In this document: positions 4,585 through 48,500 of the stretch, piece by piece | Layout of the letters: every line of letters begins with the position of its first letter | Position numbering within the stretch: the first letter of the stretch is position 1 | Source: a candidate division WOR-3 bacterium | GTDB lineage: Bacteria > Hydrothermota > Tepidihabitantia > SM23-42 > JAOAFX01 | Assembly (NCBI GenBank): GCA_039802265.1 | Contig: JBDRWI010000001.1 | Coordinates: 4,264-68,263 of the forward strand | Length of the DNA: 64,000 nucleotides | Reading direction: 5' to 3' | Translations under genes and position numbers: made by a program | Notes under the pieces: model-generated | The model's input: the letters and a program-made list of their open reading frames with translations, nothing else | Told to the model about the DNA's origin: nothing | Database searches by the model: none

Positions 4585-5931
4585 ATGAAGGTTTATCTTC
4601 TTTTAATATTGTTTGTTGGATTATCTTTCTGCCTATCAAGTTGGGAAACCAGACATTATGAGTTAACTGACAACGGGTTTTTAGACGCCGCCTCACCCGA
4701 TTCAATGATTGGAATATTGTGCGGGGTAAGGGATAATGTCGGGGGAATAATATACAAAACGACGGATGGTGGTACAAACTGGCAGGAATTTCAGCCCTGG
4801 ACAATCAATGAATGTATGTTTGTCTTTGGAATGGATTTTGTGAATCAAGACATAGGTTATTTAACCGGAATGGGGTTAATCTTTAATATTTTACCGGCTG
4901 CTGTTTTATATAAAACAATTGATGGTGGTAATTCTTGGACAAATATCTATGGTCTATCACTTGAATTCGTCGGTAAAATGTGGGATGATGTATTTTTTGT
5001 TGATTTGAACAACGGCTGGCTTGCGGGTGCCAATAGTGATATAAGACGGACAACAAATGGTGGTTCTTCTTGGACAACCCAAAGTGCCCCGGTCTCAGGT
5101 TCACTGAAGAGTATCTATTTTATAAATTCAAATGAAGGTTGGATTGTTGGCGGCGATTACGATACCCTGACCGGACAGGGCATCAATGGTTTAATTCTAC
5201 ATACTACAAACGGCGGGACAAACTGGACTGTCCAGGTTTCAAATGTACCCTATGAATTCTGGGATGTTTATTTTACTGACAATCTCAACGGCTGGGTCTG
5301 TGGATATAAAGATACGGCATCACCAGGAATATTTTACCATACTACGAACGGTGGCAACAATTGGATTGAGGTTATGGCACCATCGGTCACAACTGGACAT
5401 TATGGGTTATATGCAATTAAATTTACCGATGCGCAGACCGGTTTTTCAGTCGGTGGTGGAAATCGACTTGGCTGGCAGGGAAGTTACTTTGGAATCTTTT
5501 TGAATACTACGGATGGTGGAAGTCAATGGACTGTGGATACCGTGATATTTGATAATGACCCCTGGGGTGTTTGTCCTTTAGGAATGGACATGTTCAATTC
5601 AAGATGGGGATATGCTGGTGGTGCAAGACTTTCAGCATTCAGATATACGCCAATGGGCGGACAGATGATTGCCGAAAACAGAATAGAAATAATATCGGCA
5701 GACGAGAATCAGACAATATTTTCATCTCAACAGGAAATAGTCCTCGATATTTCCCAAAAAGAGGGATACACGAAGATCGAAATATATAATATCCTGGGAA
5801 GGAGGATTTTAATAAAAGAAATAAATAAGGCAAAGAGTGTATCATTGCCCAACCTTTCCCCGGGTCATTATTTTATAAGACTATATAGAGAGCAGGGAGA
5901 GCCACTCGTTAAAAAGATTATCACCTTATAA
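4585..5931 (+). CDS. secreted BNR/Ycf48-like beta-propeller protein with T9SS C-terminal sorting domain
   Basis: Six repeats of the BNR-type motif (TTDGGTNW, TIDGGNSW, TTNGGSSW, TTNGGTNW, TTNGGNNW, TTDGGSQW). Signal-peptide-like MKVYLLLILFVGLSF from ATG 4585, with GGAGG 5 nt upstream. C-terminus IEIYNILGRR...GHYFIRL...KKIITL is a T9SS CTD. The track ORF start at 4555 was trimmed to the SD-supported ATG. Confidence 0.7.
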   Translation: MKVYLLLILFVGLSFCLSSWETRHYELTDNGFLDAASPDSMIGILCGVRDNVGGIIYKTTDGGTNWQEFQPWTINECMFVFGMDFVNQDIGYLTGMGLIFNILPAAVLYKTIDGGNSWTNIYGLSLEFVGKMWDDVFFVDLNNGWLAGANSDIRRTTNGGSSWTTQSAPVSGSLKSIYFINSNEGWIVGGDYDTLTGQGINGLILHTTNGGTNWTVQVSNVPYEFWDVYFTDNLNGWVCGYKDTASPGIFYHTTNGGNNWIEVMAPSVTTGHYGLYAIKFTDAQTGFSVGGGNRLGWQGSYFGIFLNTTDGGSQWTVDTVIFDNDPWGVCPLGMDMFNSRWGYAGGARLSAFRYTPMGGQMIAENRIEIISADENQTIFSSQQEIVLDISQKEGYTKIEIYNILGRRILIKEINKAKSVSLPNLSPGHYFIRLYREQGEPLVKKIITL

Positions 5932-5973
5932 ACTACTTCTGTGGTAGTACAAAATTTTTAACAAGGAGATTAT

Positions 5974-7896
5974 ATGAAGATATTTATAAAATGCTTCTTC
6001 TGTCTGTTTCTCGCCATCCCCCTTGTGGGTTATCAAACCGATAGCACCGGGGTGCCGATGCGGGACGGTGTAAGATTAGGGACCGACATCTACCTGCCAT
6101 TCTGGTTCATTCCCTATATTACCGACGGACCGGTATTATTACAGCGCACACCATATGACCGTAGTTGGGATGATATTTATCTCACACTTATCTGTGATAT
6201 AATGGGTTATGTCCTCGTCGTCCAGAATCTCCGTGGTTATGGTGACTCAGAAGGCGAACCGATGGTTTTCTGGACCGACGGCTGGGGAGACCTTCAGGAT
6301 GGCTATGATGCGATAGAATGGTGTGCCGGCCAGTGGTGGTGCAATGGAAAGGTTGCAATGATTGGCGCCTCGGCGCACGGAATGACTCAATACTATGCAG
6401 CCGGGGCGTTGCCACCTCACCTTGTATGTTGTGCCCCAATGGTTGCCGCACCAAATCTTTATCTTGACTGTGCCTTCACCGGCGGTGAGTTTAGAAAGGC
6501 ATTGGTGGAAACCTGGCTCCAGGGAGTGGGAACTCCCTGGCTCATTGACTCGGTGTGTCACTATCCGAATTATTGCAGCCGATGGTCAATCGTAGACCTT
6601 TCCCAGAAATACGATGTTGCAAACTACCCGATGTTTCATATTGATGGCTGGTATGATATGTATACTGACGGAGTCCTTGACGCATTCAGTGAACTCCAGA
6701 AACGATTTCATAATCAAAAATTGTTTATCGGACCCTGGGGACACGGCGATGCCTGGGGTTCAAGATATCAGGGCGATCTGGTCTACCCACCCAATGCCGA
6801 ATTGGATGAACTGAGCTTTATCGAAATGTTAATGGATTGGTACGATTACTGGCTAAATCAGGGTGGGGGACCAGTTCCTTCTCCAAAGGTAAAATTTTAT
6901 TTGATGGGCGATTGCGATACACCCGATACCACAAACTGGAACCACTGGGTGGAGGCGGACACCTGGCCATTGCCCCAAGCTGTTTATAAAAAATATTATC
7001 TAAAAGAAAACCATCTCCTTGATACAATTCCGCCCTCAATCTCGGCAATTGATACATTCATCTATGACCCGGCAAATCCCTGTACCACATATGGTGGTCG
7101 GGAATTTATCGGGCTTACCCATGGTTATGGACCGATTGACCAGCGCCCCATTGAAAATCGTTCAGATGTACTCATCTTCTCTACACCTCCATTATCAATG
7201 CCCCTCACCGTGATCGGAAAACTAAAATTCGTTCTGTATGCGGCTTCGAATTGCTATGACACTGACTGGACAGTACGAATAACCGATGTATATCCAGATG
7301 GTCGGTCAATTCTTGTCACTGATAATATTCTGATGGCACGCCACCGCCATGGATTTGACCGCGAGGATTCATTAATACCGGATGTCGTTGATACCTTCAA
7401 TATTGACCTTTGGAGCACGGCGCTGGTATTTAATGCCGGCCATCGACTGAGGGTAATTATTTCCTCTTCTAATTACCCAAGATTTGAGAAAAATCCAAAT
7501 ACTGGTGCCCCTTTTCAAAGAAATGACCCCAATTTTATACCGGCAATTCAAAAGATTTATCGCACCACAGATTATCCATCCCATCTATTACTTCCCATCA
7601 TCCCTGAATCCAGTCCCGCAATAAGAGAGATTAGAACAGAACAACTCGGGGAAGTCCATTTCTCTTTTCCAACTGTTTCTTCAAAACCGATAATCAACTT
7701 CACACTGAATACTCCCAATTATATTCAGGTTTTAATATACGATATATGTGGAAGAGTAGTATGGTCAAGCGACAAAAATTCTTACCCACCGGGTCGCTAT
7801 CAAATAGTTCCTCCTCGCTTAAATAACGGAATATATTTTCTCAGGATAAAGACCACAAAGGAAAAATATTTAAAGAAAATAATCGTCATTCACTGA
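5974..7896 (+). CDS. CocE/NonD-family (S15 X-Pro dipeptidyl-peptidase-like) hydrolase with T9SS C-terminal sorting domain
   Basis: QRTPYDR, NLRGYGDSEG, YDAIEW and the serine elbow GASAHG are typical of the CocE/NonD alpha/beta hydrolases. C-terminus IQVLIYDICGRVV...GIYFLRIKT...IIVIH is a T9SS CTD. AAGGAG upstream of the ATG. Confidence 0.75.
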   Translation: MKIFIKCFFCLFLAIPLVGYQTDSTGVPMRDGVRLGTDIYLPFWFIPYITDGPVLLQRTPYDRSWDDIYLTLICDIMGYVLVVQNLRGYGDSEGEPMVFWTDGWGDLQDGYDAIEWCAGQWWCNGKVAMIGASAHGMTQYYAAGALPPHLVCCAPMVAAPNLYLDCAFTGGEFRKALVETWLQGVGTPWLIDSVCHYPNYCSRWSIVDLSQKYDVANYPMFHIDGWYDMYTDGVLDAFSELQKRFHNQKLFIGPWGHGDAWGSRYQGDLVYPPNAELDELSFIEMLMDWYDYWLNQGGGPVPSPKVKFYLMGDCDTPDTTNWNHWVEADTWPLPQAVYKKYYLKENHLLDTIPPSISAIDTFIYDPANPCTTYGGREFIGLTHGYGPIDQRPIENRSDVLIFSTPPLSMPLTVIGKLKFVLYAASNCYDTDWTVRITDVYPDGRSILVTDNILMARHRHGFDREDSLIPDVVDTFNIDLWSTALVFNAGHRLRVIISSSNYPRFEKNPNTGAPFQRNDPNFIPAIQKIYRTTDYPSHLLLPIIPESSPAIREIRTEQLGEVHFSFPTVSSKPIINFTLNTPNYIQVLIYDICGRVVWSSDKNSYPPGRYQIVPPRLNNGIYFLRIKTTKEKYLKKIIVIH

Positions 7897-7935: not shown

Positions 7936-7963
7936 TTGACGACCAGAAAAAAATCCATATAAT
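7936..7963 (+). promoter_or_regulatory. sigma70-type promoter of the cyclase operon (leaderless or near-leaderless)
   Basis: TTGACG (7936-7941), 16-nt spacer, TATAAT (7958-7963). Only 8 nt separate the -10 box from ATG 7972. Confidence 0.65.
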
Positions 7964-7971
7964 ATAAGGTT

Positions 7972-10900
7972 ATGAAATGTGTCATCTGTAATTCCGATAA
8001 AATCCCGCAAGCTGCCGAATTCTGTCCCAATTGTGGTACACAACTTAAAATTGAATCCACCAGAGATAAGGGCACCGAACGGCTAAAAATCCTTGGTGGT
8101 GAATCACGCTTCGTAACCCTGTTCTTTGTAGATTTTATTATTATGAACCCAGCGGAGGATAAAATAACCAAACAGAATATCATCTATCTGAGCGATTTGA
8201 TGGAAAAAGTCGCTGCGATTGTCAAAAAATACGATGGAACGGTAAATCGAATAATGCCCGATTACCGACTTCTCATAATATTCGGAGCACCCAAAGTCCA
8301 TACCGATGACCCGAATCGTGCCGTCCGGTGTGTATTAGAGATTAAGAAATATCTTTATGAAAGAAGACGATTAGAAGCGCCAATCACCAGGTTTAATATA
8401 AAAATTGGAATCAATTCCGGCTGGATTTTTTTTGGATATGTCCTTGAAAATCCGCCATTTTTGACTGTAATCGGTGATACGGTCAATATTGCAGCCCGTC
8501 TTGCTCAGATGAGTATGCCAGATCAAATCTTGATGAGCGAGAATACATATAATCTGCTGCCTGACTTGATTGTTGCTGAACACATCGGAATGACTTATGT
8601 AAGAGGTAGGTCCGGCTCTTTGGATGTCTATAATCTGATAGATATAAGATTTGAAACTCTGCAGATGCCCAAATGCCCATTCTGGGGACGGAAGGAGGAA
8701 ATGGCGCGATTGATTGCGCTTACCCAAAAAATCAAAGAGAATAGAATCAGCATTGGAATCATTACCGGACAGATGGGCATTGGTAAGACACGGTTGAAAG
8801 AGGAATTTGAAAATTTTCTGAGAGCGGATGGTTCGTTCCGCTTCATTGAAAGCCACTGTACAGTAGAAATGCAGACCCCCTATTATCCATTTAAATTGTT
8901 ATTTCGTGAGTATTTTAATTTGAAGGAAAGCGATAGCCGGGCAAATATCGCCGAGAAGATTGACCGCTTTGTCTCGGAAAACAACCTTGATCCACAGGAA
9001 ATAAAGGGAATAAAACATCTCTTTCTAACCGACCTGCAGCGGTTGTGGGGTGAAAATTTAATTTCAATCAATGAAGAGATATTTATCGCGGTTGGTAATC
9101 TGCTCAGATTTGAATGCAAAAAAAATCCCTTAGTAATTATCTTTGAAGAATTCAACCGCGCCGATTCAATGACGAAAAACCTTGTCGCATATTTAGCCGC
9201 GGAATTAGTTAATAACTCAATTATGTTTCTGCTGATCAATTACACCGGTGATTTATTCAAAAAAGACAACAATAATAATTTTGAAGAAATTAATCTCGGA
9301 CCGCTGAGTAAAGAGACAATAGCCAATCTGGTAAATTATTATCTCACCGATGCCGACCCCAATCTGATTGAATTTTTATATAAAACTACTGGCGGCAATC
9401 CACTATTCACCATTGAAACCATTAAAAATGTAAAACGAAGAAATATAATCAAAAAGGAAGCATCTGGAAGATGGTTATTGGACAGAGAGAAACACTTTAC
9501 CTTTCTTGACGACCTCTACAGTGTGGTAATGTCGGGACTTGATGCACTGGCTCCAGAATACCGCTTGATTATTGATTACGCCTCGGTCATCGGTTACAGC
9601 TTTAATTATCACATTCTTAAAGAAATATTAGAAGACGAAGAAAATCTATTAGAAAGATTGAACTATCTAAAAAATGAAGATTACATCATTCAATTCAAAG
9701 ATGATACAGACCCGATTTATATCTTTAGACACAACTTATTAAAAGATGCCGCATATACCACACTGCCACTGAAAAAGAGAAAAGAATTACACCGCCGGGT
9801 GGCTGTTCTATTGGAAAAATCTTATTCTGAGCAACTTTCCGAATATTACGAGACTATTGGATACCATTACCATGAAGCAGAAAATTATAAAAAAGCCGCT
9901 GAATACTTTAAAATGGCTGGTGACAAGGCAAAAAATCTCTATGCGATTGAACAGGCAATAAATTTTTATAACAATGTGCTAAAAATAGGCCGCGAATATA
10001 AAGAACAGATATCGCCAAATTTATTAAGACAGACTGAATTAAATCTGACCGACATCTATGAAATACTTGGTGATACCCAGAGAATGAAAGAAATTGCTGA
10101 AAGTGGACTCAGTGCAGCAGAAATAGAAAAAAACCAGAAAGAAATTCTTTTATTCAGCGAACGAAAGGCAATTTCACTTCTGATGTCCGGAGATTATAAG
10201 AGTGCTGAATCATTACTTCTTGAGTCGGTAGAAAACTGCCCAGCGGAATACGCCGATGTCCTGACCCAATTATATTCAGACCTCGGATTACTTTATGCCG
10301 AAAAATATGAATATGAAAAGAGCATCCTGAATTATAACCTGACCTGGAACACCGCCCGGACCTACGGTATTAAAGAAGGGGAAATAAGATGCCTTTTGAA
10401 TCTCTCCCAGTTACACACAAAGTTAGGTAATTATGAACTGGCATATGAATACTTGAATTACGGTCTGGACGAACTCATAACTGAAGAAAATCTACGCCCG
10501 AAGGCACAGTATAAATATAATTTGGGAATTCTGGATTATCAGGTCTGGAATCTAAACAAGGCGATAGAACAATTAACCGAGGCATTCAACATTGCCGAGC
10601 GGAGTAGCCATGAGATACAGATAAAGTCTGCCCTTGAACTTGCCCTTATTCATTCCCTGATGCAAAATTATGATGAGGCAGCAAGATTGGTTGAATATGT
10701 TGATAAAAAAATTACCCCCACAATCAGAGAGATTTTACTTTCCGAGATTAACCTCAAAAAGGCAATTTTTTACGAAAATAAAAAAGAGCGGGAACGGGTT
10801 GTCCCCTTTCTAACAAACGCCCTGAAATTAGCCCAGAAATATAATCAGCAAGAAACCATTGTTCACTGTCTACTACTGAAGGCAGACATAGATGAAATCA

Positions 10901-11142
10901 AAGCGATTGAAAATTTAAAGTCGGCTCTGGAAATCGCTGAAACCCTGAAGTTATCACCCCTGATCGGGCAGGTAATGTATAAACTTGCCTGTATGTATGT
11001 GAAAATGAATGAAAATGAGAAGGCACAATATTACGGCCGCAAGGCACTCCTAATTTATAATGATATTAAAACAAAGTTAAAGGACATAAATCAAAATTAT
11101 TATATCAACAGACCCGAATATGTAGCATTGCTTGAGATATAA
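7972..11142 (+). CDS. zinc-ribbon / class III nucleotidyl cyclase / STAND-type P-loop ATPase / TPR-repeat protein
   Basis: CxxC-x11-CxxC zinc ribbon (CVICN...CPNCG). Cyclase core motifs RFVTLFFVDF, LLIIFGAP, IGINSG and VIGDTVNIAARL. Walker A GQMGIGKTRL. The C-terminal ~500 aa are TPR-like helical repeats. Confidence 0.8.
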   Translation: MKCVICNSDKIPQAAEFCPNCGTQLKIESTRDKGTERLKILGGESRFVTLFFVDFIIMNPAEDKITKQNIIYLSDLMEKVAAIVKKYDGTVNRIMPDYRLLIIFGAPKVHTDDPNRAVRCVLEIKKYLYERRRLEAPITRFNIKIGINSGWIFFGYVLENPPFLTVIGDTVNIAARLAQMSMPDQILMSENTYNLLPDLIVAEHIGMTYVRGRSGSLDVYNLIDIRFETLQMPKCPFWGRKEEMARLIALTQKIKENRISIGIITGQMGIGKTRLKEEFENFLRADGSFRFIESHCTVEMQTPYYPFKLLFREYFNLKESDSRANIAEKIDRFVSENNLDPQEIKGIKHLFLTDLQRLWGENLISINEEIFIAVGNLLRFECKKNPLVIIFEEFNRADSMTKNLVAYLAAELVNNSIMFLLINYTGDLFKKDNNNNFEEINLGPLSKETIANLVNYYLTDADPNLIEFLYKTTGGNPLFTIETIKNVKRRNIIKKEASGRWLLDREKHFTFLDDLYSVVMSGLDALAPEYRLIIDYASVIGYSFNYHILKEILEDEENLLERLNYLKNEDYIIQFKDDTDPIYIFRHNLLKDAAYTTLPLKKRKELHRRVAVLLEKSYSEQLSEYYETIGYHYHEAENYKKAAEYFKMAGDKAKNLYAIEQAINFYNNVLKIGREYKEQISPNLLRQTELNLTDIYEILGDTQRMKEIAESGLSAAEIEKNQKEILLFSERKAISLLMSGDYKSAESLLLESVENCPAEYADVLTQLYSDLGLLYAEKYEYEKSILNYNLTWNTARTYGIKEGEIRCLLNLSQLHTKLGNYELAYEYLNYGLDELITEENLRPKAQYKYNLGILDYQVWNLNKAIEQLTEAFNIAERSSHEIQIKSALELALIHSLMQNYDEAARLVEYVDKKITPTIREILLSEINLKKAIFYENKKERERVVPFLTNALKLAQKYNQQETIVHCLLLKADIDEIKAIENLKSALEIAETLKLSPLIGQVMYKLACMYVKMNENEKAQYYGRKALLIYNDIKTKLKDINQNYYINRPEYVALLEI

Positions 11143-11147
11143 CGATT

Positions 11148-11786
11148 ATGAAGTGTGTTAATTGTAATCAGCCAATTTCCGAAATATTTAATTACTGCCC
11201 CTATTGTGGGGCATTACTTCAAGAACAAAAAGGTCTACCTCTGGAAGATATAAATCTGGCATTTATTCGCGCCGACCTCTCAGGCTTTACCGGTCTCAGC
11301 GAAAAAATGGAATCTGAGGATGTTATGAATCTGTTGAATGGCATATTCGGCGAATTTCAGAAGATAATTAACTCTTACCAGGGCATTATCTACCAGGTTA
11401 TCGGTGACGAAATCGTTGCCGTCTTCGGTTTAAAAAGGGGTGTGACTTTTTCCTTCCATATGGCAATTCTTGCTGCTGAGGATATATTCAAAAAATTGAA
11501 TGAGTTTAATAAAACCGGAAAGTTTGAAAGACCTATCGGATTAAAGGTCGGGGCAGAAGCAGACACTGCCTCAGTATATAAAACACATGGTGGACTTCAG
11601 ACAGCGCTAATCATAACCGATGGTTTTAAAAAGAGTCTGATTTTACAGAAGAATGCCGAAGACAACACCCTTTTAGTTGGTGAGAATCTATATCAGGCGA
11701 CGAAATCCTTTTTTGAATTCATTCCCTATGGCGAACTGGTTGAAGATTCTCTGTCCATAAAGGCATATAAGTTTCTCTTAAGATAA
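11148..11786 (+). CDS. zinc-ribbon + class III nucleotidyl cyclase domain protein (stand-alone, partly degenerate)
   Basis: CxxC-x10-CxxC (CVNCN...CPYCG). Metal-Asp motifs FIRADLSGFT and VIGDEIVAVFG are present. The position of the GDTVNxAARL motif reads ITDGFKKSLILQ, so the Asn and Arg are absent. It starts 5 nt after the upstream stop, with no SD. Confidence 0.7.
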   Translation: MKCVNCNQPISEIFNYCPYCGALLQEQKGLPLEDINLAFIRADLSGFTGLSEKMESEDVMNLLNGIFGEFQKIINSYQGIIYQVIGDEIVAVFGLKRGVTFSFHMAILAAEDIFKKLNEFNKTGKFERPIGLKVGAEADTASVYKTHGGLQTALIITDGFKKSLILQKNAEDNTLLVGENLYQATKSFFEFIPYGELVEDSLSIKAYKFLLR

Positions 11787-11791
11787 ATCCC

Positions 11792-13969
11792 ATGGAAACA
11801 TCAGCACACCCTGAATTTTATCACGAATTCATAAAGCAGATCGGACTGGGTATAAATATCTCAAGGATCTATCCGAAGGGGCATCCTTCCCTGGAACCAG
11901 TAGTCCAAAGACTCAAGATATTGCTAAAAGAACTACCCTTAGAAAAGGAATCTATTTCCATTGTTGTAATCGAAGATATTCTGATGATAGAAGACAATAG
12001 ATTTGAAGCCAAAAAATTGCCAATCGTGAAGAGTCTGGTTGATCGCTTTACACAACTGGGTATCAAGAGTATTACCTTTGATGTCGATGCCACCGATGAG
12101 GATATAAAGGGATTCTTCCTTGCCATGGCATCAACCCCCGCCGAGATTTCGGATTACGGTGATATTGTCTCATTGTTGAGAACAAAGGGAGTATTGAAGG
12201 TTAAACTGAATAAATACCGGGTGGGTGTATTCTCTTCGGAGGAAGAGGTAAAGGAAATCAACTGGACCAACTTTCTTGAGTCAATTGCCCTTTCTCAAGA
12301 AAGCCAGAGTGAAGAAGAACGAATAAAACAGTTGGGCAGTTTTCTCGCCGGCGTCGGTGTTATCGGAAGTGAACCGGTTGAAACACAGACGAGTAAAGTA
12401 ATCGGCGGGCTCGAAAAGATTGCCTTGATGATTGCCGACCAGTATGGTGAAGAAAGATGGAATGAATATTCAATCATCTTTTCAAGAATCCTGGCAGTGC
12501 TTTCGCCCACCATCAAAAAGAATATCTTGAAGTATAAAACTGAAAACAAAAAACTTGCCACTCTTTTCAAGAGCCTCATACCCACGATGTCGGATGAAGA
12601 TATTATTGATATAATCGCAACCAAGGCTAAGGAAAAGAAGGATACAAGCGAGGATGAAATCATTGATATTTTAAAGAATGTTGCTGGTACCAGACTTCCC
12701 AGTATCCTCTCAACGGTGAGGGCCAACTTCCCCGAATTAAATTTTGAAAAAATTGTTTCACAACTTATGGCCGAACTGAAGACCATCAAAGGGACTGAGG
12801 TTGCCGATAAGTTTATGAGTAAGAATCTGGAAGCCGAAATGAGAAGTTTCTTCCCCCAACTAAGAGAAGCAGCCCCCGAAGAAAGGGTTAAGGCAATTGA
12901 AGGACTTTTGGCTTTCAGTAAAAAGTTATTTGATGCCAAAGATTATGAACTACTCCGCCTCCTCATTGACCGCCTCGATTCAATGTCCGATACAGAGGAA
13001 AATATCACCGTCTTTAAAAAAATTATGGAGGCAATTAAATTATTATATCTCAAATCAGAAGAATTAGGATTTGCTGATATCATTCAGTTTATTTCCAAAA
13101 AATTCTCACGGCATTTAATTCGTAAGGAAAAAGTCTTTCTTGATAAAAAGAATGTTGTTATCAAGATAATCGGCGATATAAGGGACCAGAACTACCTTGC
13201 CGAATTAGTATCTTTACTTTGGGACCCGGGAACCTTTGTTGAAGCACGCGAGGCACTGATTGCAATGTCAGACTTCTCACTGCCCATTTTGATTGACACC
13301 TTAAAAGAGACCGAGGATAAGAGTGTAAGATTAAAGATAATTGATGTGATACTCCGAATTGGAGAAAAGGCAATACCCCAAACTCTTAAACTTCTCTCCA
13401 GCGATGATTGGTTTGTTAAAAGAAATGGTTTATTTATCCTCGGTGAACTCAAGGCAAAAGATGCGGTGGATGAGATTGGTAGGTTGTTAGACAGCAAAGA
13501 AGAACAGGTACAGATTGAAGTCCTTACCACCCTCAGCAAGATAGGCACGGAAAAAACCAAGGAATATATAAAAAAGGGACTGGATAGCCAATTTCCTCAG
13601 GTTGTAATTGCTGCAATGAAAAATTTAACTAAAGAAGATGTAAAACCAAAATTACCCCAAATAATTCAACTATTAAAGCGGCGAAAAGGAACTCCCGATG
13701 AAAAAGAAGAAGCACTTAGAATTGGTCTAATTAATTTACTCGGAGAATTGGGTGATGATTCGGTCGTTGATAGGCTGATTGAAATATTAGATGAAAAGAT
13801 ATTATTTAAGAACGAATTGCTTTTACCCACCAAGGAGGCAGTTTTACGTGCCCTTGCCCAGATCAAAACTGATAAGGCATTAAGTGCGTTGAAACAGGCA
13901 ACAAACCATCGGGATGCCTTTGTCGCTACAACTGCCCGGGAGATTCTCAAGAGAATCAAACCGGGATAA
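11792..13969 (+). CDS. HEAT-repeat protein with uncharacterised N-terminal region
   Basis: The C-terminal third carries repeated HEAT/PBS-lyase-type units (WFVKRNGLFILGELKAKDAV, VQIEVLTTLSKIGTEK, PQVVIAAMKNL, RIGLINLLGELGDDSVV, KEAVLRALAQIKTDKAL). The N-terminal ~450 aa have no motif I can name. It starts 5 nt after the upstream stop, with no SD. Confidence 0.6.
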   Translation: METSAHPEFYHEFIKQIGLGINISRIYPKGHPSLEPVVQRLKILLKELPLEKESISIVVIEDILMIEDNRFEAKKLPIVKSLVDRFTQLGIKSITFDVDATDEDIKGFFLAMASTPAEISDYGDIVSLLRTKGVLKVKLNKYRVGVFSSEEEVKEINWTNFLESIALSQESQSEEERIKQLGSFLAGVGVIGSEPVETQTSKVIGGLEKIALMIADQYGEERWNEYSIIFSRILAVLSPTIKKNILKYKTENKKLATLFKSLIPTMSDEDIIDIIATKAKEKKDTSEDEIIDILKNVAGTRLPSILSTVRANFPELNFEKIVSQLMAELKTIKGTEVADKFMSKNLEAEMRSFFPQLREAAPEERVKAIEGLLAFSKKLFDAKDYELLRLLIDRLDSMSDTEENITVFKKIMEAIKLLYLKSEELGFADIIQFISKKFSRHLIRKEKVFLDKKNVVIKIIGDIRDQNYLAELVSLLWDPGTFVEAREALIAMSDFSLPILIDTLKETEDKSVRLKIIDVILRIGEKAIPQTLKLLSSDDWFVKRNGLFILGELKAKDAVDEIGRLLDSKEEQVQIEVLTTLSKIGTEKTKEYIKKGLDSQFPQVVIAAMKNLTKEDVKPKLPQIIQLLKRRKGTPDEKEEALRIGLINLLGELGDDSVVDRLIEILDEKILFKNELLLPTKEAVLRALAQIKTDKALSALKQATNHRDAFVATTAREILKRIKPG

Positions 13970-14031
13970 GACATATAGTTTTTCCAAAAAAATTTGCCTT
14001 CACACCATGAAGTATTTCTCTCTCCCCTTTT

Positions 14032-14067
14032 AAAAAACCCGGCCGCGGCCCGAAGGCCACGACCGGG
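14032..14067 (-). terminator. rho-independent terminator (minus strand)
   Basis: 13-bp GC-rich stem CCCGGUCGUGGCC / GGCCGCGGCCGGG (two G-U pairs on the minus-strand RNA, C-A mismatches on the plus strand), UUCG tetraloop, then U6. The U-tract exists only on the minus strand. Confidence 0.8.
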
Positions 14068-14108
14068 AGGGGAAAGATGTCTAATAATTAGACAACAGAT
14101 AAGTTAAT
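14032..14108 (-). ncRNA. candidate ~77-nt small RNA (own promoter, AU-rich 5' hairpin, C-rich linker, intrinsic terminator)
   Basis: On the minus strand, TTGACA-N16-TATAAT (14142-14115) is followed ~7 nt later by AUUAACUUAUCUGUUGUCUAAUUAUUAGACAUCUUUCCCCUCCCGGUCGUGGCCUUCGGGCCGCGGCCGGGUUUUUU. There is no AUG in the transcript. The 5' end is inferred from promoter geometry only. Confidence 0.55.
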
Positions 14109-14114
14109 AAGTTT

Positions 14115-14142
14115 ATTATAATTAAAAATTGAATAATGTCAA
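14115..14142 (-). promoter_or_regulatory. consensus sigma70-type promoter of the candidate sRNA
   Basis: Minus strand: TTGACA (14142-14137), 16-nt spacer, TATAAT (14120-14115). Both hexamers are perfect. Confidence 0.65.
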
Positions 14143-14156
14143 CGTTATTAAAATAG

Positions 14157-14185
14157 TTGACATTTAACTTATTTTGATTTATAAT
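14157..14185 (+). promoter_or_regulatory. consensus sigma70-type promoter of the small membrane protein gene
   Basis: TTGACA (14157-14162), 17-nt spacer, TATAAT (14180-14185). AAGGAG lies at 14191-14196 and the ATG at 14204. Confidence 0.7.
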
Positions 14186-14203
14186 TTCACAAGGAGCCTG
14201 AAT

Positions 14204-14356
14204 ATGAAGATTATTCTGATAATTATAATCCTGGCGGTACTTGCTTGGATTATTACCTTAGTAATCCAGTCGGCAGAAAAAAAGAGAAGGGAAGAGTATA
14301 TAAAACAGAAAATGGAAGAAAAGAAAAAGGAAGAAGAAAGGAGTTTTAGACCTTAA
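14204..14356 (+). CDS. 50-aa single-pass membrane peptide with Lys/Glu-rich tail
   Basis: MKIILIIIILAVLAWIITLVIQSAEKKRREEYIKQKMEEKKKEEERSFRP. Supported by a perfect promoter and a well-spaced AAGGAG. The track ORF start at 14174 was trimmed to the SD-supported ATG. The 3' end overlaps the convergent 14346 gene by 11 nt. Confidence 0.6.
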   Translation: MKIILIIIILAVLAWIITLVIQSAEKKRREEYIKQKMEEKKKEEERSFRP

Positions 14357-23295: not shown

Positions 23296-24834
23296 ATGAA
23301 CCACCGAATTCCCATAATGCCAATAATCGTCCTATTCTTAGATACCTTGGGGTTTTCGCCACCAATCTGGCCAAACTGGAAGTATGATCGACAATTGACT
23401 GGAAGATGCCCATACATCGGACCGGAGCAGCCGGAAATTGATTGGGTCTTTGATACCCAGGATACATTTCGGTTCACTTCGGCCTCGGTAGTAATCAGTG
23501 GGGATAGTACAATATACTTCTGCAGTCCTGATAGTTTCCTCTTTGCGGTCAAACCCAATGGTGTCTTGAAGTGGCGATTCAAAACCCGTGGGCGCCCTTA
23601 TTTTCCAGCAATTGATGAGTCAGGTAGAATTTACTGCAGTGTTGCCGGCGATAGTATCTATCTCTTGACACTGGATGATTCCATTACTTACGCGAAGTTT
23701 GTCTGGTCCTGGAGCATGCCTAATAATAATAATCTTGTCGCCCTTCCCCCAATTAATATTGGTGTAGATAAAACCACCTATATGTCCGCGGATTCTATGC
23801 GTGCCATTGATAGTGCCGGAAATATAAAATGGACATGTCACCGTGGGATGACCTCGGCTTATCCACCCGCCCTATCTCATGATGGTTCAAAATTATTTTA
23901 TGAATGGTGTTATGACCAGTGGACAAACACGCTTGCCAGTCGTGATACGAGCGGCGCTTTAAACTGGTATCGGGTTATCGGCCCAGCTCCGATGTCCTTA
24001 GCCTGGGGGAGTCCGGCAATTGGTAGAGATAGTGCTATCTATTTTTCAACTGCTGATGGTAGATTACTTGGATTGTGGCCAAACAATACTGATAAATGGG
24101 CACCCCAAAATAACCTGGGTGCCTTGAACTTTATGACGGTTTCTCTTGGAAGTAATGATACCCTGTGGCTTATGAACTATGGGAAAAGGCCAACTTATCG
24201 TAAATTCTCTCCGGACAACGGTATAATTACCTTTATTGACTCAGTCACCACCCTGCCCAGTGTGTACAACTTTTTTAACTCTTATATAATTGATAGTCTG
24301 GGACAGGCATATATTGTTCTAAGGGATTCGCAAACCACTTCAAGTATCTTATACGCATTCAACGCTGATGGCACTGTCAAGTGGTCCATACCTCTTACTG
24401 GTTCATCATTTACACCAAGGAGTTTTCCGGCAATCGGACCAAACCACAAAATATATGTGTGTGCAGGCACTAAATTATTTGCCATCAGAGATGGAAGCAA
24501 TATTGCTGAGTCTAAAAAGGAAAGAAAAAAACCCTTCTTTTTTGATGTCTATCCCAATCCCTTCACAAGGCATTGCGTGATCGAATTCCAAATCCCGAGC
24601 CGTCACTCAGATTGGCGGGTCAAGTCCCGGTCCGAAGTTTCTTTAATAATTTATGATATCTCTGGTAGGGTTGTGAAATCGTTTAATTCAACAATAAGCA
24701 CCAAGAATCAAATATCAAAAATCCATTGGTTTGGTAATGACGATTCAGGTCGCAAACTCCCACCCGGTGCATATTTCTTGGTTATTAAGACATTTGAATT
24801 TGTTGTAGAAAAAAAGGTCGTTAAGGCAAATTAG
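23296..24834 (+). CDS. secreted PQQ/BamB-like beta-propeller repeat protein with T9SS C-terminal sorting domain
   Basis: Repeating ...G(x)I(Y/K)W... blades (GVLKWRF, GNIKWTC, GALNWYR, GTVKWSI). C-terminus FFDVYPNPF...VSLIIYDISGRVV...GAYFLVIKT is a T9SS CTD. The start is ambiguous (ATG 23296 or 23317). Confidence 0.6.
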   Translation: MNHRIPIMPIIVLFLDTLGFSPPIWPNWKYDRQLTGRCPYIGPEQPEIDWVFDTQDTFRFTSASVVISGDSTIYFCSPDSFLFAVKPNGVLKWRFKTRGRPYFPAIDESGRIYCSVAGDSIYLLTLDDSITYAKFVWSWSMPNNNNLVALPPINIGVDKTTYMSADSMRAIDSAGNIKWTCHRGMTSAYPPALSHDGSKLFYEWCYDQWTNTLASRDTSGALNWYRVIGPAPMSLAWGSPAIGRDSAIYFSTADGRLLGLWPNNTDKWAPQNNLGALNFMTVSLGSNDTLWLMNYGKRPTYRKFSPDNGIITFIDSVTTLPSVYNFFNSYIIDSLGQAYIVLRDSQTTSSILYAFNADGTVKWSIPLTGSSFTPRSFPAIGPNHKIYVCAGTKLFAIRDGSNIAESKKERKKPFFFDVYPNPFTRHCVIEFQIPSRHSDWRVKSRSEVSLIIYDISGRVVKSFNSTISTKNQISKIHWFGNDDSGRKLPPGAYFLVIKTFEFVVEKKVVKAN

Positions 24835-45592: not shown

Positions 45593-48500
45593 ATGCATTC
45601 ATATAAAAAGCCCCTGTTATTAACAGTAGTCATGCTGAGCATCGTCTGGGCAGGTCCTTCAACTAAAAAGCAAGTAAGTGAGCCTGAAATAACATTACTC
45701 AGGCCAATGGAACTTGAATTAAGAACCCCTGCCCCGGTCTGGGATACAAATCGGGTCTGGCCCGGTGCCACTGCAAACCTCACAAGAAAAGTTGCGATTG
45801 GGAAGTATTTCAAGGGCGCATTGGATGACACCATCCGTCTGGTAACGGTCCAATCCGGTGGTACAAGGAATTTAGTCATTGCTACTGATACAATGAGCTC
45901 AAGTTTTGTAAAAAATGGCTTCCGAATTGAGACACCCTATGCCTTTGCCAGTGGTAGCACCCCCCATGCAGTTGCGGTTGGTGATGTGGATGGTGATGAG
46001 TATATTGATATACTGGCAGCCCAGTCTGCCACACCATACCGGCTATTCTGGTTTGAATGGGACACTGGTGCACTTAACTGGGTTGTGCGCGATTCATTGA
46101 CTGTAAATAATGCAATCAATGACATTACATTCGGTGATGGCGACAACAATGCAACAACCAGGGACTTCTACATCAATATCGCCCAGACCTCACCAAGTGC
46201 GGCAATTATGAGAATTTTCTGGACCGGCACTGCCTGGGATACCTTAAGGATTCTGCTCAGCGGCGGTGTCTCTTCACGGGGTGTTGCGGTTGGTGATATC
46301 CGACCAGAACTTGCCGGAAACGAAGTCTATGCAGTTGGTAGTTCAAGGATCTGGCAGGTCTATTTCAATGGTGTATCCTGGGATACCGCCACAATCACCA
46401 GTGGGGTAAGCGGTTCTTATGATGTGGTTGTGGGTGATGTAAATCCGGTAAATTCGGGAAATGAACTCTGCGTCGTCCATGGCTCAACATCCTATCAGGT
46501 ATCAATCTGGAACTGGACCGGTGCAAACTGGTCAGGAATCCTCTGGGCATTCACATCAACCTGGGGAACATCGGATAATACACTTGAAATTGGTGATGTC
46601 CTGAAGGAAAATCCTGGTAATGAACTGGTCTTGATGAGTGGTGCCAGTACAACTGCACAGCCCAGGGTCTTCTGGTATGCACCGAGTGGCAATGCCTGGG
46701 TGAGCACCTTACCCAAGTCAGTTGGTTCACAGAGTGACTATGGGGTGGCAATCGGTGATATAAATAGATTCCGCACATTCAATTCAGAATTTGTCCTTTC
46801 CGGTGGTGGCTCACTCGTTGAAGTAGAAGAGCACGACTTCGTTGATGACATTGGTACCTACTGGATTAGAATGAAAAATCCAACCGCAATCATAAACCTC
46901 CCTGACACAATCACTGCGGTAATCTTCAATGCTGGTTCAAATCCCAAATCAAACTTTAATGTTGGCTATCGCTTCAAGAACAGTCCATTAACTGGCTCTT
47001 TCATCTATACTGGCACGCTCAATCCCGGTGCAATAGATAGTATAAAATTTCCTGTCACGCTTGATTTTCTGGGAATGGATTCGCTATATGTATTTACCAG
47101 TCTTGCTGGGGATGCCTGGATATTGAATGATACAACAAGACTCCACCTTGAGGTATATGACGAAACCACAAAAGTTGCATCAACCTTCAATAATACTGCA
47201 TTTCCACCTGCCAATGCCACAATCTCACCAATGATAAATACACCCGATACCTGGTGGCGGACAATCCTGTCCGGTTCATACAACTGGGCAAGATATACCT
47301 CCGGTACCAATCCCACCTGCTCACCATATGAAGGCTATGGGATGGCTGGTTATCCATCTTATAATGCATCTTCTGGCTCCCAGGCAAGGTTACGCACCCA
47401 TCGGTTTAATATTGGTCCAACTCCTAAAAAGGTGATGCTCAGATTCTATATGTATCACGACCCGGGTTATTCCACAAATTCCGACTCCGTAATTATTGAA
47501 TTTTCTTATAACGATACAACATACAATCGGGTTGCTGGATTCCATCGCTATAATGCGACTGCTGGCTGGTATTTGCATGATGTGGAAATTGGCGACTTTC
47601 CAGCAAATAAGGACCTCTATATTGGATTCAAGGCAAACAGTGGCTATGGCAATAATATGTTCATTGACTCAGCAAGGGTATTTATTACCACACCAACCGC
47701 ACCAGTGGTTGATGCGGGAATCCAGAACATTACACCATTTGCCCCACCGATATTTGTTGGTGAGACACTCACCGTTCAGGTTCTGGTCCGTAATTATGGT
47801 CTGCAGACCCTTACTTCAACCCCGGTCTTTTATACCCTTGGTGGTGCGGATACGGTCTGGGAGAACTGGACCGGCTCACTGGAGATAAATGAAACTGCCC
47901 TTTACACATTCACCACGAATTTTATTCCAACAACTGCCGGTGAAGAAACCCTCTATGCCGGAACGAAATTGACCGGTGACCAAAATCCCGCAAATGATGT
48001 AGCAAGTTTGGTTTTTCTCGTCTGTCCTGAATACCATACCTTACCTTATACCAAGAACTTTGATGAGGCGTGGACAAATTCAACAAACCCACCCTTCTGT
48101 GGCTGGACAATTGTTGATGGTGGTACCCAATCACCACCGGTGATAGACAATAATGACTGGCATCGTTATGTAAGCAGTTCTCCCGCAAGAACAGTTGCCC
48201 GAGTCTACTACTCACCTGTTGAATGGACCGATGACTGGCTCATCTCACCGAGGTTTGATTGTTCTCAATTGGGATATTATACACTCTCATACTGGCACTG
48301 GTATGATGACTACACAACAAATTCCCCTGATTCGGGAAGAGTTCTTCTGAGCACCGACGGTGGCGCAAACTGGCAGACCGTTGCAATCTATTCCAATGCC
48401 GATGACTCCGGTTATAAGTCAATTGATGTCAGTTCCCTGGCAATGGGTCATAATAATGTAAAGATTGCCTTCCATTATGTGGCATATAATGAATGGCGCT

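What the first reader, a model, noticed from the sequence alone, without database searches (positions are those of the whole stretch)
7936..13969. SD-less three-gene operon: cyclase-STAND-TPR protein, second mini-cyclase and HEAT-repeat protein (NLR-like second-messenger module?)
Seen: three ORFs (7972-11142, 11148-11786, 11792-13969) are separated by only 5 nt each. They sit behind one promoter whose TATAAT lies 8 nt before the first ATG. None has a Shine-Dalgarno, although neighbouring genes (4585, 5974, 16528, 45593) have AGGAGG-type sites. ORF1 reads zinc ribbon, class III nucleotidyl cyclase core (FFVDF, IGDTVNIAARL), Walker A GQMGIGKTRL, then a long TPR array. Established: output domain, STAND NTPase and helical-repeat sensor is the layout of NLR-like proteins, including the antiviral Avs and bNACHT families. 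Class III-fold cyclases are also the signal generators of Pycsar systems. Inference: this may be a sensor in which ligand recognition by the TPR array switches on cyclic-nucleotide synthesis. The small cyclase and the HEAT protein would be partner and effector. No cNMP-binding, TIR, nuclease or TM effector is visible, and the flanks are ordinary genes. Housekeeping signalling is therefore as likely as a conflict system.
Basis: partly seen in the sequence, partly recalled or inferred. Interest (0 to 1): 0.7.

Follow-up and report, generated by a model that had tools for sequence, protein, structure and literature searches.

The report
Two-gene cyclase with STAND switch
A three-gene operon kept intact in every relative examined from the uncultured bacterial phylum WOR-3 appears to encode a nucleotide cyclase split into two complementary halves, as in animal adenylyl cyclases, one half fused to an ATP-driven switch, plus a helical-repeat partner; it looks like the lineage's own signalling device, not an antiviral system.

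Summary
ORFs 7972-11142, 11148-11786 and 11792-13969 form one tightly coupled operon behind a promoter whose -10 box ends 8 nt before the first ATG. ORF1 is zinc ribbon, class III cyclase, AAA_16 STAND NTPase, then TPR. ORF2 is zinc ribbon plus cyclase. ORF3 is a new N-terminal domain plus a HEAT solenoid.

The triad is strictly syntenic in all 37 WOR-3 species loci recovered and in two deeper lineages. Its flanks are housekeeping genes that differ between species. It is absent from viral contigs and has no defence-type effector. That favours vertically inherited signalling over defence.

The main new finding is that the two cyclase domains are complementary. ORF2 keeps both metal-binding Asp residues but lacks the transition-state Asn and Arg. 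ORF1 keeps Asn, Arg and Thr but has lost the first Asp in most orthologues. Profiles match C2-type halves (ORF1) and C1-type halves (ORF2) of animal enzymes. I infer an obligate heterodimer with one active site under STAND control.

ORF3's N-terminal domain (signature YPxxHP, not in Pfam) recurs in histidine kinases, GGDEF, HD and MshE-type proteins. ORF3's role and the nucleotide product remain unknown. The lack of SD sites is explained by a leaderless start plus coupling.

The parts
7936..7963 (+). Sigma-70-type promoter: TTGACG (7936-7941), 16-nt spacer, TATAAT (7958-7963). The -10 box ends 8 nt before the ORF1 ATG, so the transcript is probably leaderless or nearly so.
   Evidence: The same TTGACA, 17-nt spacer, TATAAT (or near-consensus) box ends 8 nt before the ATG in L012, L014, L015, L018, L019, L030, L034, L046 and L047.
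7972..11142 (+). ORF1, 1056 aa: zinc ribbon, C2-like class III cyclase half, AAA_16 STAND NTPase, winged-helix/helical region, TPR array.
   Evidence: Orthologues of 1052-1061 aa occur in all loci where the contig allows.
7978..8043 (+). ORF1 zinc ribbon (CxxC...CxxCG, residues 3-24).
   Evidence: Pfam Zn_Ribbon_1/DZR weak hits. The Cys positions are invariant across orthologues.
8107..8634 (+). ORF1 cyclase domain (residues 46-221), C2-like. T165, N172 and R176 are invariant. Position 93 is Arg or Lys. The first metal Asp (position 54) is Asn or Ser in most orthologues, although this window has Asp.
8680..9207 (+). ORF1 NTPase domain (AAA_16, residues 237-412): Walker A GQMGIGKTRL (266-275) and Walker B IIFEEFNRAD (389-398).
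   Evidence: Pfam AAA_16 at 56.7 bits. Both motifs are conserved.
9262..9891 (+). ORF1 helical and winged-helix region (residues 431-640). This is the best-conserved part of ORF1 and includes the FRHNLLKDAAY motif.
   Evidence: Conservation map and alignment A3.
9892..11139 (+). ORF1 TPR sensor array (residues 641-1056).
   Evidence: TPR_12 at 58.2 bits plus a weak TPR_MalT hit. PDB hits are to LGN and bacterial kinesin-light-chain TPRs.
11148..11786 (+). ORF2, 212 aa: zinc ribbon plus C1-like class III cyclase half. D43 (in SGFT) and D87 (in GDE) are invariant. The Asn/Arg motif is replaced by the conserved T-x-G-F-x-K-S-[QL]-I-L-Q-K-N-A. ORF2 is a paralogue of ORF1 residues 1-146.
11792..13969 (+). 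ORF3, 725 aa: N-terminal alpha/beta domain with the YPxxHP signature, a disordered linker, then a HEAT-type solenoid.
   Evidence: AF2 model with pLDDT 83. Foldseek finds only HEAT/ARM scaffolds.
11810..12211 (+). ORF3 N-terminal domain (residues 7-140). It has no Pfam, PDB-sequence or Foldseek match. Y27-P28-x-x-H31-P32 is conserved family-wide.
12311..13957 (+). ORF3 all-helical solenoid (residues 174-722). Pfam HEAT_2 repeats are detectable from about residue 500.
14038..14067 (.). GC-rich hairpin (13 bp, 11 of them GC) 69 nt after the ORF3 stop. The T-run lies on the minus strand, so on the plus strand it is at best a T-less terminator for the operon.

Best explanation
The operon encodes a lineage-specific, chromosomally inherited second-messenger signalling module of WOR-3 bacteria.

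Shown: three co-translated proteins of fixed size and order are conserved across the whole set of relatives recovered. ORF1 and ORF2 carry paralogous zinc-ribbon-plus-cyclase units whose catalytic residues are complementary.

Inferred: ORF1's cyclase domain supplies the substrate-specifying Arg/Lys and Thr and the transition-state Asn and Arg, and so is C2-like. It pairs head-to-tail with ORF2, which supplies the two metal-binding Asp residues and so is C1-like. The pair forms one competent active site and one degenerate pocket, as in animal membrane and soluble adenylyl cyclases and soluble guanylyl cyclase.

Inferred from the STAND paradigm (MalT, AfsR, NLRs): a signal perceived by ORF1's TPR array drives nucleotide exchange and oligomerisation of the AAA_16 module. 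That controls whether, or how, the ORF1 half-cyclase engages ORF2, and so switches synthesis of a cyclic nucleotide. The product is most likely cAMP, because the Lys/Arg plus Thr pair and the best PDB matches are class IIIb adenylyl cyclases.

ORF3 is made in step with the other two through termination-reinitiation coupling. It is a YPxxHP input domain fused to a HEAT scaffold. It is most likely the module's protein partner, either the downstream target or receptor or a co-sensor docking on the TPR array.

The absence of SD sites reflects a leaderless first gene and coupled downstream genes. It is not an unusual mode of expression.
For: Synteny: all 37 GTDB species loci, plus L006-L011, carry ORF1-ORF2-ORF3 in the same order. 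Identities are 41-49%, 46-57% and 48-72% for the three proteins. Gaps are -4 to +3 nt everywhere. Two deeper triads, with ORF3 at 28-33% identity, keep the same order.

Flanks: they differ in every species and are housekeeping genes such as rlmN, citrate synthase, lon, cysS, purH and guaA.

Co-divergence: pairwise identities of ORF1 and ORF2 correlate at r = 0.95.

Complementarity: at ORF1 position 54 the counts are N19, S8, D2, Q2, while D97, T165, N172 and R176 are invariant. In ORF2, D43 and D87 are invariant in 38 of 38 sequences, there is no Asn or Arg, and a different conserved motif takes their place. In L051 the ORF1-like protein lacks both Asp residues while its partner keeps both.

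PDB matching: ORF1 hits only C2 halves of mammalian ACs and ORF2 only C1 halves. With family profiles, ORF1 matches sAC 278-419 and the tmAC C2 halves, and scores sGC beta above alpha. ORF2 matches sAC 41-197, tmAC C1 halves only and sGC alpha only.

The rule that C1 gives the Asp residues and C2 gives the substrate and transition-state residues, and the homodimer rule for bacteria, come from PMC4174876 and PMC9552081.

NTPase motifs are conserved. ORF2 is a paralogue of the ORF1 N-terminus (E = 4e-6). The ORF3 N-terminal domain is fused elsewhere to HisKA/HATPase, GGDEF, HD_5, MshEN-T2SSE and Ser/Thr kinase.
Against: There is no biochemical evidence, and no complex prediction could be run.

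In this window ORF1 still has both Asp residues (D54, D97), so here a homodimer might retain some activity.

ORF1's Asp2 sits in P-D rather than G-D, and the purine-contacting Lys is Arg in about half of the orthologues (Gln or Glu in a few). Activity and product are therefore uncertain.

In L049 both cyclase domains fall below Pfam detection, so catalysis may not be maintained in every lineage.

STAND membership rests on Pfam AAA_16 and on motifs only. No solved STAND structure is detectable by sequence.

Nothing shows which protein binds the product. No cNMP-binding domain was found in the operon or among the window genes that were scanned.

Whether the triad is universal or patchy within WOR-3 was not measured.
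Confidence: 0.6

Rival explanations
1. It is an antiviral conflict system of the Avs, bNACHT or Pycsar type. The TPR array recognises a phage component, the cyclase makes an alarm nucleotide, and the HEAT protein or an unlinked effector halts infection.
For: The layout output domain, STAND NTPase, repeat sensor is that of NLR-like defence proteins. Both cyclases give weak PycC hits in PADLOC (E = 1.7e-7 and 6.2e-8). The flanks differ between species, which is also a property of mobile islands.
Against: The PADLOC hits are generic cyclase-domain similarity. No TM, TIR, nuclease or cNMP-binding effector is adjacent. The triad is not found in viral contigs. Neighbours are housekeeping genes in all loci examined, with no integrases or other defence genes. 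One locus was found per species in 37 WOR-3 species, the family is restricted to this lineage, and the three proteins co-diverge. GC content is not anomalous. ORF3 is the most conserved of the three proteins, unlike the fast-evolving sensors of conflict systems.
Confidence: 0.07
2. ORF1 is a self-sufficient homodimeric (or STAND-oligomerised) cyclase. ORF2 is a regulatory decoy that caps or inhibits ORF1's cyclase domain and is not a catalytic partner.
For: In this window ORF1 retains D54, D97, R93, T165, N172 and R176, which is a complete residue set. Bacterial class III cyclases are normally homodimers. STAND oligomerisation alone would bring the cyclase domains together.
Against: 27 of 32 ORF1 orthologues that cover position 54 have Asn or Ser there, 2 have Gln and only 3 (this window and two others) have Asp. 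L051 lacks both Asp residues, so the homodimer cannot bind the two metals in most species. A pure decoy would have no reason to keep both metal-binding Asp residues invariant in canonical DxSGFT and GDE contexts in 38 of 38 sequences.
Confidence: 0.13
3. Both cyclase domains are pseudoenzymes. They serve as nucleotide-binding or dimerisation modules within a STAND-HEAT scaffold complex, and no cyclic nucleotide is made.
For: Contexts are non-canonical: P-D instead of G-D, Arg, Gln or Glu at the Lys position, and loss of the GFT motif in ORF1. The cyclase domains in L049 are below Pfam detection and have Arg to Lys at the transition-state position. No recognisable cNMP receptor was found nearby.
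Against: Across the two proteins, one full set of the six canonical catalytic positions is preserved over divergence down to about 25% identity. That pattern is expected for a working composite site and not for decayed domains.
Confidence: 0.12

Closest known systems
Mycobacterial cyclase-ATPase-LuxR proteins Rv0386, Rv1358 and Rv2488c (Mclx1-3), and the wider class III cyclase plus AAA_16 plus TPR architecture
   Same: An N-terminal class III cyclase homology domain is followed by an AAA/NB-ARC-type NTPase and helical repeats (PMC4452763). ORF1 has the same order.
   Different: ORF1 has no C-terminal LuxR HTH domain. It has an N-terminal zinc ribbon. Its cyclase domain has lost the first metal Asp in most orthologues. 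It is always followed by a complementary mini-cyclase and an N-terminal-domain-plus-HEAT protein. As far as I recall, the mycobacterial enzymes are treated as self-sufficient: the isolated Rv0386 catalytic domain is active (Castro et al. 2005, cited).
TIGR03903, TOMM system kinase/cyclase fusion protein
   Same: It is the best NCBIfam hit. ORF1 residues 43-670 align to profile positions 283-918, the cyclase plus ATPase part (E = 2.4e-54).
   Different: The score of 184.7 bits is far below the 705.75-bit cutoff. ORF1 has no kinase domain and no TOMM genes nearby. This is homology of the cyclase-STAND core only.
Eukaryotic pseudo-heterodimeric class III cyclases: membrane AC C1/C2, soluble AC C1/C2 and soluble guanylyl cyclase alpha/beta
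   Same: [quoted passage not shown] The result is one active site plus one degenerate pocket (PMC4174876). ORF2 matches the C1/alpha halves and ORF1 the C2/beta halves.
   Different: Here the halves are separate bacterial polypeptides encoded by adjacent genes, each with its own zinc ribbon, and one is fused to a STAND NTPase. The split looks like an independent duplication and subfunctionalisation, because ORF1 and ORF2 are each other's paralogues. There are no membrane anchors, G-protein sites or haem domains.
MalT/AfsR/LAL-type STAND transcription regulators
   Same: Both have an AAA_16 P-loop NTPase, a conserved winged-helix region and a TPR-type sensor array. There is a weak TPR_MalT hit (E = 0.013), and relatives also give faint TPR_MalT hits.
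   Different: The output is an enzyme half-domain at the N-terminus, not a DNA-binding domain. No solved STAND structure is detectable by sequence.
Pycsar (PycC cyclase plus TM or TIR effector) and the Avs/bNACHT antiviral STANDs
   Same: A class III-fold cyclase acts as signal generator (Pycsar). The logic of STAND plus repeat sensor is shared with Avs and bNACHT.
   Different: There is no effector gene, no defence-island context, no viral occurrence, and the pattern looks vertically inherited and lineage-wide.

Membership tests
Class III nucleotidyl cyclase (Pfam PF00211) | The sequence matches the Guanylate_cyc model above the gathering score. | tested here: met
   ORF1 scores 45.6 bits and ORF2 34.7 bits against a cutoff of 21.9. 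The best PDB relatives are CyaB, Cya2 and CyaC.
Class III nucleotidyl cyclase (canonical bacterial homodimeric type) | One chain carries all six catalytic positions: two metal Asp residues, the Lys and Asp/Thr specificity pair, and the transition-state Asn and Arg. | tested here: not met
   ORF2 lacks Asn and Arg in 38 of 38 sequences. ORF1 lacks Asp1 in most orthologues (N19, S8, Q2 against D2 plus this window). L051 ORF1 lacks both Asp residues.
C1/C2-type heterodimeric class III cyclase (works-like test) | The catalytic residues are distributed in a complementary way between two different cyclase domains, and that distribution is conserved. | tested here: met
   Physical heterodimerisation and activity cannot be tested with these tools.
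STAND NTPase (AAA_16 group: MalT, AfsR, LAL, PknK) | P-loop NTPase domain with conserved Walker A and Walker B motifs, matching AAA_16 above the gathering score. | tested here: met
   AAA_16 scores 56.7 bits against a cutoff of 32.6. GxxGxGK[ST] and hhhFE[ED]F..AD are conserved.
STAND NTPase (AAA_16 group) | A winged-helix/helical arm follows the NTPase, then a repeat sensor. | tested here: inconclusive
   A conserved helical region (431-640) and a TPR array are present. No structure of ORF1 was predicted, and no solved STAND is detectable by sequence. The MalT-like FRHxL motif is my recollection, not a test.
STAND NTPase | Ligand-triggered, nucleotide-dependent oligomerisation. | not testable with these tools
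   Requires biochemistry or cryo-EM.
TIGR03903 TOMM kinase/cyclase fusion | Score above the NCBIfam cutoff, with a protein kinase domain at the N-terminus. | tested here: not met
   184.7 bits against a cutoff of 705.75, and only profile positions 283-918 are matched. Pfam finds no kinase domain.
Pycsar | A PycC cyclase is adjacent to an effector with a cNMP-binding domain fused to a TM or TIR domain. | tested here: not met
   Only weak PycC-model hits. The neighbours are a peptidase, a pseudouridine synthase and SpoIID, and no effector is present.
Avs / bNACHT antiviral STAND | Match to the Avs or NACHT defence models, a cell-killing effector domain, and a defence-island or mobile context. 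| tested here: not met
   No Avs or NACHT model is hit in PADLOC at E <= 0.1. The context is housekeeping. Nothing was found in viral contigs.
HEAT-repeat protein (PF13646) | HEAT_2 match above the gathering score and a solenoid fold. | tested here: met
   76 bits against a cutoff of 27.7. The AF2 model is an all-helical solenoid over residues 175-725, and its Foldseek hits are the PP2A A subunit, SF3B1 and beta-catenin.

The most novel reading that the evidence does not exclude
Bacteria independently evolved an obligate C1/C2-type heterodimeric class III cyclase from two separately encoded paralogous halves, and coupled it to a STAND switch. The un-named YPxxHP domain at the head of the HEAT protein, which is also found on histidine kinases, GGDEF, HD-type and MshE-type proteins, is a new sensor or receptor domain that reads the product or delivers the signal. 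This would be a previously undescribed second-messenger circuit specific to WOR-3 and its relatives.
Probability: 0.25. Interest if true: 0.75.

Novelty: new variant of a known kind. Interest (0 to 1): 0.55.

Why it matters
Bacterial class III cyclases are textbook homodimers with two equivalent sites. The asymmetric C1/C2 arrangement is treated as a eukaryotic innovation that arose by gene duplication and fusion (PMC9552081). A conserved bacterial system in which the two halves are separate genes with cleanly partitioned catalytic residues would be a natural model for how such asymmetry evolves. It would also show what the degenerate second pocket is used for.

The system offers a tractable case of a STAND NTPase controlling an enzyme whose activity depends on dimer geometry.

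It also attaches a first functional context to two unknowns. One is a widespread signalling domain that Pfam does not model (YPxxHP). The other is cyclic-nucleotide signalling in the uncultured phylum WOR-3.

None of this has been shown biochemically. If the proteins prove inactive or ORF1 works alone, the finding reduces to one more lineage-specific cyclase-STAND operon.

Tried and rejected
1. Defence reading. The PADLOC scan, the viral-contig scan and neighbourhood inspection gave nothing beyond generic cyclase similarity, so I rejected it as the main explanation.
2. TOMM kinase/cyclase membership. The score is far below the cutoff, so I rejected it.
3. Closest solved STAND. Neither phmmer nor a family profile of ORF1 residues 226-660 found any STAND structure. 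Only TPR proteins and noise-level ClpC hits appeared.
4. Fold of the ORF3 N-terminal domain. A high-confidence model (pLDDT 89.5) has no significant Foldseek match (best E = 0.57, TM about 0.2). The scattered GAF-domain hits have probabilities of 0.09 or less, and I do not count them as evidence for cNMP binding. Pfam and PDB sequence searches, including lenient ones, found nothing.
5. Conservation of the window's flanking genes next to the triad in other species: none found.
6. The apparent truncation of ORF1 in L044 is a masked run of N, not a pseudogene.
7. Literature. Searches for a bacterial two-gene heterodimeric class III cyclase, and for WOR-3 cyclases, found no precedent. The 2004 actinobacterial cyclase survey could not be read in full, so a precedent may exist there.
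No complex prediction was possible.
9. The third large protein search (on ORF1) was not spent. Its top 120 hits would have been the same WOR-3 orthologues.

Full report
OBSERVATION. They are separated by 5 nt each. A TTGACG, 16-nt spacer, TATAAT promoter (11 of 12 matches) lies at 7936-7963, and its -10 box ends 8 nt before the ATG. Promoter-like hexamer pairs as a class are no commoner here than in shuffled sequence (30 against 27.2). This one, however, recurs at exactly the same distance from the ATG in the nine closest species, so it is a real, conserved promoter, and the mRNA is probably leaderless.

None of the three starts has an SD core, while 4585, 5974, 16528 and 45593 have AGGAGG-type sites. 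Two things make this less remarkable. First, 7 of 50 genes in the window have a -10-like hexamer ending 6-9 nt before the start, so promoter-adjacent starts are a habit of this genome. Second, 36 of 37 relatives do have a GGAG 7-10 nt before ORF2, inside the conserved CTGGAG that encodes ORF1's C-terminal Leu-Glu. The window carries CTTGAG there. In all relatives the gaps are -4 to +3 nt. Leaderless initiation of ORF1 plus termination-reinitiation coupling of ORF2 and ORF3 therefore explains the pattern.

DOMAINS. Pfam gives the following:
- ORF1: zinc ribbon, Guanylate_cyc (48-221), AAA_16 (237-412) and TPR_12, with a weak TPR_MalT hit.
- ORF2: zinc ribbon plus Guanylate_cyc, but only the N-terminal half of the model (40-135).
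- ORF3: HEAT_2 repeats in the last third.

Walker A (GxxGxGKTRL) and an acidic Walker B (hhhFEEF..AD) are conserved. The best-conserved stretch of ORF1 is the helical/winged-helix region 431-640. The best NCBIfam hit is the cyclase-ATPase core of TIGR03903, at 184.7 bits against a cutoff of 705.75, so this is homology and not membership. PADLOC returns only weak PycC hits.

SOURCE AND DISTRIBUTION. The window comes from a candidate division WOR-3 MAG (GCA_965649065.1; the phylum is now Caldifarciminota in NCBI taxonomy). ORF3 has more than 115 full-length relatives at 49-72% identity, all about 725 aa. ORF2 has 114 at 43-57% identity, all about 212-220 aa. Nearly every one that carries a taxon name is WOR-3; the exceptions are one TA06-labelled ORF3 relative and a few labelled only 'bacterium' or metagenome.

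Every locus long enough carries ORF1-ORF2-ORF3 in the same order. None of the window's flanking genes sits beside the triad in any other species. The flanks elsewhere are other housekeeping genes: rlmN, citrate synthase, aconitase, lon, cysS, asnA and polX. Pairwise identities of ORF1 and ORF2 co-vary tightly (r = 0.95; ORF1-ORF3 0.84; ORF2-ORF3 0.78).

The triad is not in IMG/VR viral contigs. Its GC content matches its surroundings. The rest of the window is ordinary chromosome: the dcw cluster with ddl, ftsZ and ftsA, then coaBC, btuR, thiolase, Ham1 and T9SS-tailed surface proteins.

An exhaustive HMMER search found two deeper triads. L051 encodes proteins of 1055, 216 and 922 aa, with the ORF3 relative at 28% identity. 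L049/L050, from a hydrothermal vent, encodes 977, 191 and 704 aa at 33%. The triad is therefore an old, vertically maintained unit whose integrity is selected while everything around it is reshuffled. I could not measure whether it is universal within WOR-3.

THE TWO CYCLASES ARE COMPLEMENTARY. In class III cyclases the active site lies at the interface of a head-to-tail dimer. [quoted passage not shown] Bacterial enzymes carry all residues in one chain and form homodimers with two sites (PMC4174876 and PMC9552081).

Residue-level alignment to CyaB and Cya2 fixes the positions. Across 36 ORF1 and 38 ORF2 sequences:
- In ORF1 the first metal Asp (position 54) is Asn in 19, Ser in 8, Gln in 2 and Asp in only 2 orthologues plus this window.
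- In ORF1, Asp97, Thr165, Asn172 and Arg176 are invariant, and the purine-contacting position 93 is Arg in 17, Lys in 9, Gln in 3 and Glu in 1.
- In ORF2, Asp43 (in DLSGFT) and Asp87 (in GDE) are invariant.
- In ORF2 the Asn/Arg motif is replaced by a different but strongly conserved T-x-G-F-x-K-S-[QL]-I-L-Q-K-N-A.

The deep triads show the same split. L051 ORF1 has Lys and Asn at the two Asp positions but keeps GDAVNLASR, while its partner keeps both Asp residues.

Independent support comes from matching against solved structures. With single sequences, ORF1 hits only C2 halves of mammalian ACs and ORF2 only C1 halves. With family profiles, ORF1 matches soluble AC residues 278-419 (C2) and the C2 halves of AC5, AC8 and AC9, and it scores sGC beta above alpha. 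ORF2 matches soluble AC 41-197 (C1), C1 halves only and sGC alpha only.

ORF2 is also a detectable paralogue of ORF1's first 146 residues, zinc ribbon included (E = 4e-6). The simplest history is a duplication of the zinc-ribbon-plus-cyclase unit followed by subfunctionalisation. I infer an obligate ORF1:ORF2 heterodimer with a single catalytic site. In this window ORF1 still has both Asp residues, so residual homodimer activity cannot be excluded here.

ORF3. AlphaFold2 (117 sequences, pLDDT 83) gives an alpha/beta domain (residues 7-140), a disordered linker (143-172) and an uninterrupted helical solenoid (175-725). Foldseek finds only scaffold proteins: the PP2A A subunit, SF3B1, beta-catenin and alphaRep.

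The N-terminal domain was modelled alone (pLDDT 89.5, pTM 0.84). It has no significant structural neighbour (best E = 0.57) and no Pfam or PDB sequence match. It does have about 100 distant relatives in the 1.8-billion-protein library. Nearly all carry it at the N-terminus, followed by HEAT repeats. In others it is fused to PAS-HisKA-HATPase, HD/HD_5, GGDEF, MshEN-T2SSE ATPases or a Ser/Thr kinase. Its family-wide signature is Y-P-x-x-H-P (Tyr 59, Pro 55, His 61 and Pro 59 of 63 sequences) plus an S-I-T-F strand. It therefore behaves like a generic input domain of signal-transduction proteins.

More distant proteins with this domain plus HEAT occur without cyclases. One heads a che operon (L053). 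Others follow rpe (L052, L054). One sits alone between purH and guaA (L055), the very slot that holds the full triad in L049. The HEAT protein is thus the older, self-sufficient component, and the cyclase pair looks like an added input. That makes ORF3 a plausible target or receptor of the signal, but this is inference only.

MECHANISM (best estimate). The steps are:
1. A signal is perceived by the TPR array.
2. Nucleotide exchange and oligomerisation of the AAA_16 module follow.
3. ORF1's C2-like half engages, or is re-oriented relative to, the C1-like ORF2.
4. A cyclic nucleotide is synthesised. It is probably cAMP, given the Lys/Arg plus Thr pair and the closest structures (CyaB, CyaC, soluble AC).
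5. The signal is read out through, or modulated by, the YPxxHP-HEAT protein.

Shown: the architecture, the conservation, the complementarity and the coupling. Inferred: heterodimerisation, activity, the product, STAND control and ORF3's role.

RIVALS. A defence system is unlikely, at about 0.07. A self-sufficient ORF1 with ORF2 as a decoy (about 0.13) is contradicted by the loss of Asp54 in most orthologues and by the invariance of ORF2's Asp pair. A pair of pseudoenzymes (about 0.12) is contradicted by the preservation of exactly one full catalytic set across the two chains.

NOVELTY. Cyclase-STAND-TPR fusions are known, for example Rv0386, Rv1358 and Rv2488c (PMC4452763) and TIGR03903. Three things appear to be new:
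- the partition of the catalytic site between two separately encoded bacterial proteins;
- its invariable linkage to a YPxxHP-HEAT protein;
- the un-modelled YPxxHP domain itself.

Literature searches found no precedent, but the library is incomplete. I rate this a new variant of a known kind, with interest 0.55.

Noticed in passing
window 14026-14142, minus strand: A perfect consensus promoter (TTGACA, 16-nt spacer, TATAAT, 12 of 12 matches, 14142 to 14115) is followed by a strong intrinsic terminator (13-bp stem with 11 GC pairs at 14067 to 14038, then TTTTTT). This predicts a transcript of about 80 nt, convergent with the operon's 3' end. It folds into two hairpins (-35.7 kcal/mol, z = -6.3) that flank a single-stranded CCCCUCCC, which resembles an anti-SD sequence. 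There is no Rfam match. It is a candidate small RNA.
   Followed up: partly
window 14157-14356, plus strand: A second perfect promoter (12 of 12 matches), divergent from the sRNA candidate, drives a 50-aa protein (14204-14356, SD AAGGAG). The protein has a hydrophobic N-terminal helix and a Lys/Glu-rich tail. The gene is called in the source assemblies but has no Pfam hit.
   Followed up: no
window-wide: starts at 7972, 15209(-), 15296, 30911(-), 30990, 36905, 50389: 7 of 50 genes have a TAnAAT hexamer ending 6-9 nt before the start codon and no SD site. Many other genes have full AGGAGG sites. This WOR-3 genome seems to mix leaderless and SD-led initiation.
   Followed up: partly
ORF3 residues 7-140 (window 11810-12211); P0281, P0312, P0313, P0316, P0318, P0331: This is an alpha/beta domain of about 140 residues with the signature Y-P-x-x-H-P. 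Pfam does not model it and it has no structural neighbour in the PDB. It recurs at the N-terminus of HEAT proteins, histidine kinases, HD-type phosphohydrolases, a GGDEF protein, MshEN-T2SSE ATPases and a Ser/Thr kinase.
   Followed up: partly
L049 3935-9547; L051 4193-10769; L055 7001-9292: The deep-branching triads sit directly after purH. In L049 the triad lies between purH and guaA. In L055 the same purH...guaA slot holds only the HEAT protein, with no cyclase genes. This suggests that the cyclase pair was gained or lost at a fixed locus next to purine-nucleotide genes.
   Followed up: partly
L053 696-6665: In another MAG (accession from the same series as the window's, so probably WOR-3), a paralogous 897-aa protein with the ORF3-type N-terminal domain plus HEAT heads a chemotaxis operon (cheW, response regulator, cheA, cheC/cheX). 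This hints that the protein family acts as an adaptor in several signalling pathways.
   Followed up: no
window 8131-8133 (ORF1 codon 54): This window's ORF1 is one of only three sequences that retain Asp at the first metal-binding position. The other 29 that cover the position have Asn, Ser or Gln. It may be an ancestral state or a reversion, and it makes this orthologue the least suitable for testing obligate heterodimerisation.
   Followed up: no
window 45593-50287 and 4585-7896, 23296-24834: A 1564-aa ORF has only a C-terminal FlgD_ig/T9SS-type tail detectable by Pfam. Several neighbouring secreted proteins (BNR/sortilin, S15 peptidase, beta-propeller) carry Por_Secre_tail sorting domains. 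The organism evidently relies on type IX secretion.
   Followed up: no
L044 3234-3334: ORF1 looks truncated in this closed-genome locus only because the collection masks 100 bases as N. It is not a pseudogene.
   Followed up: yes
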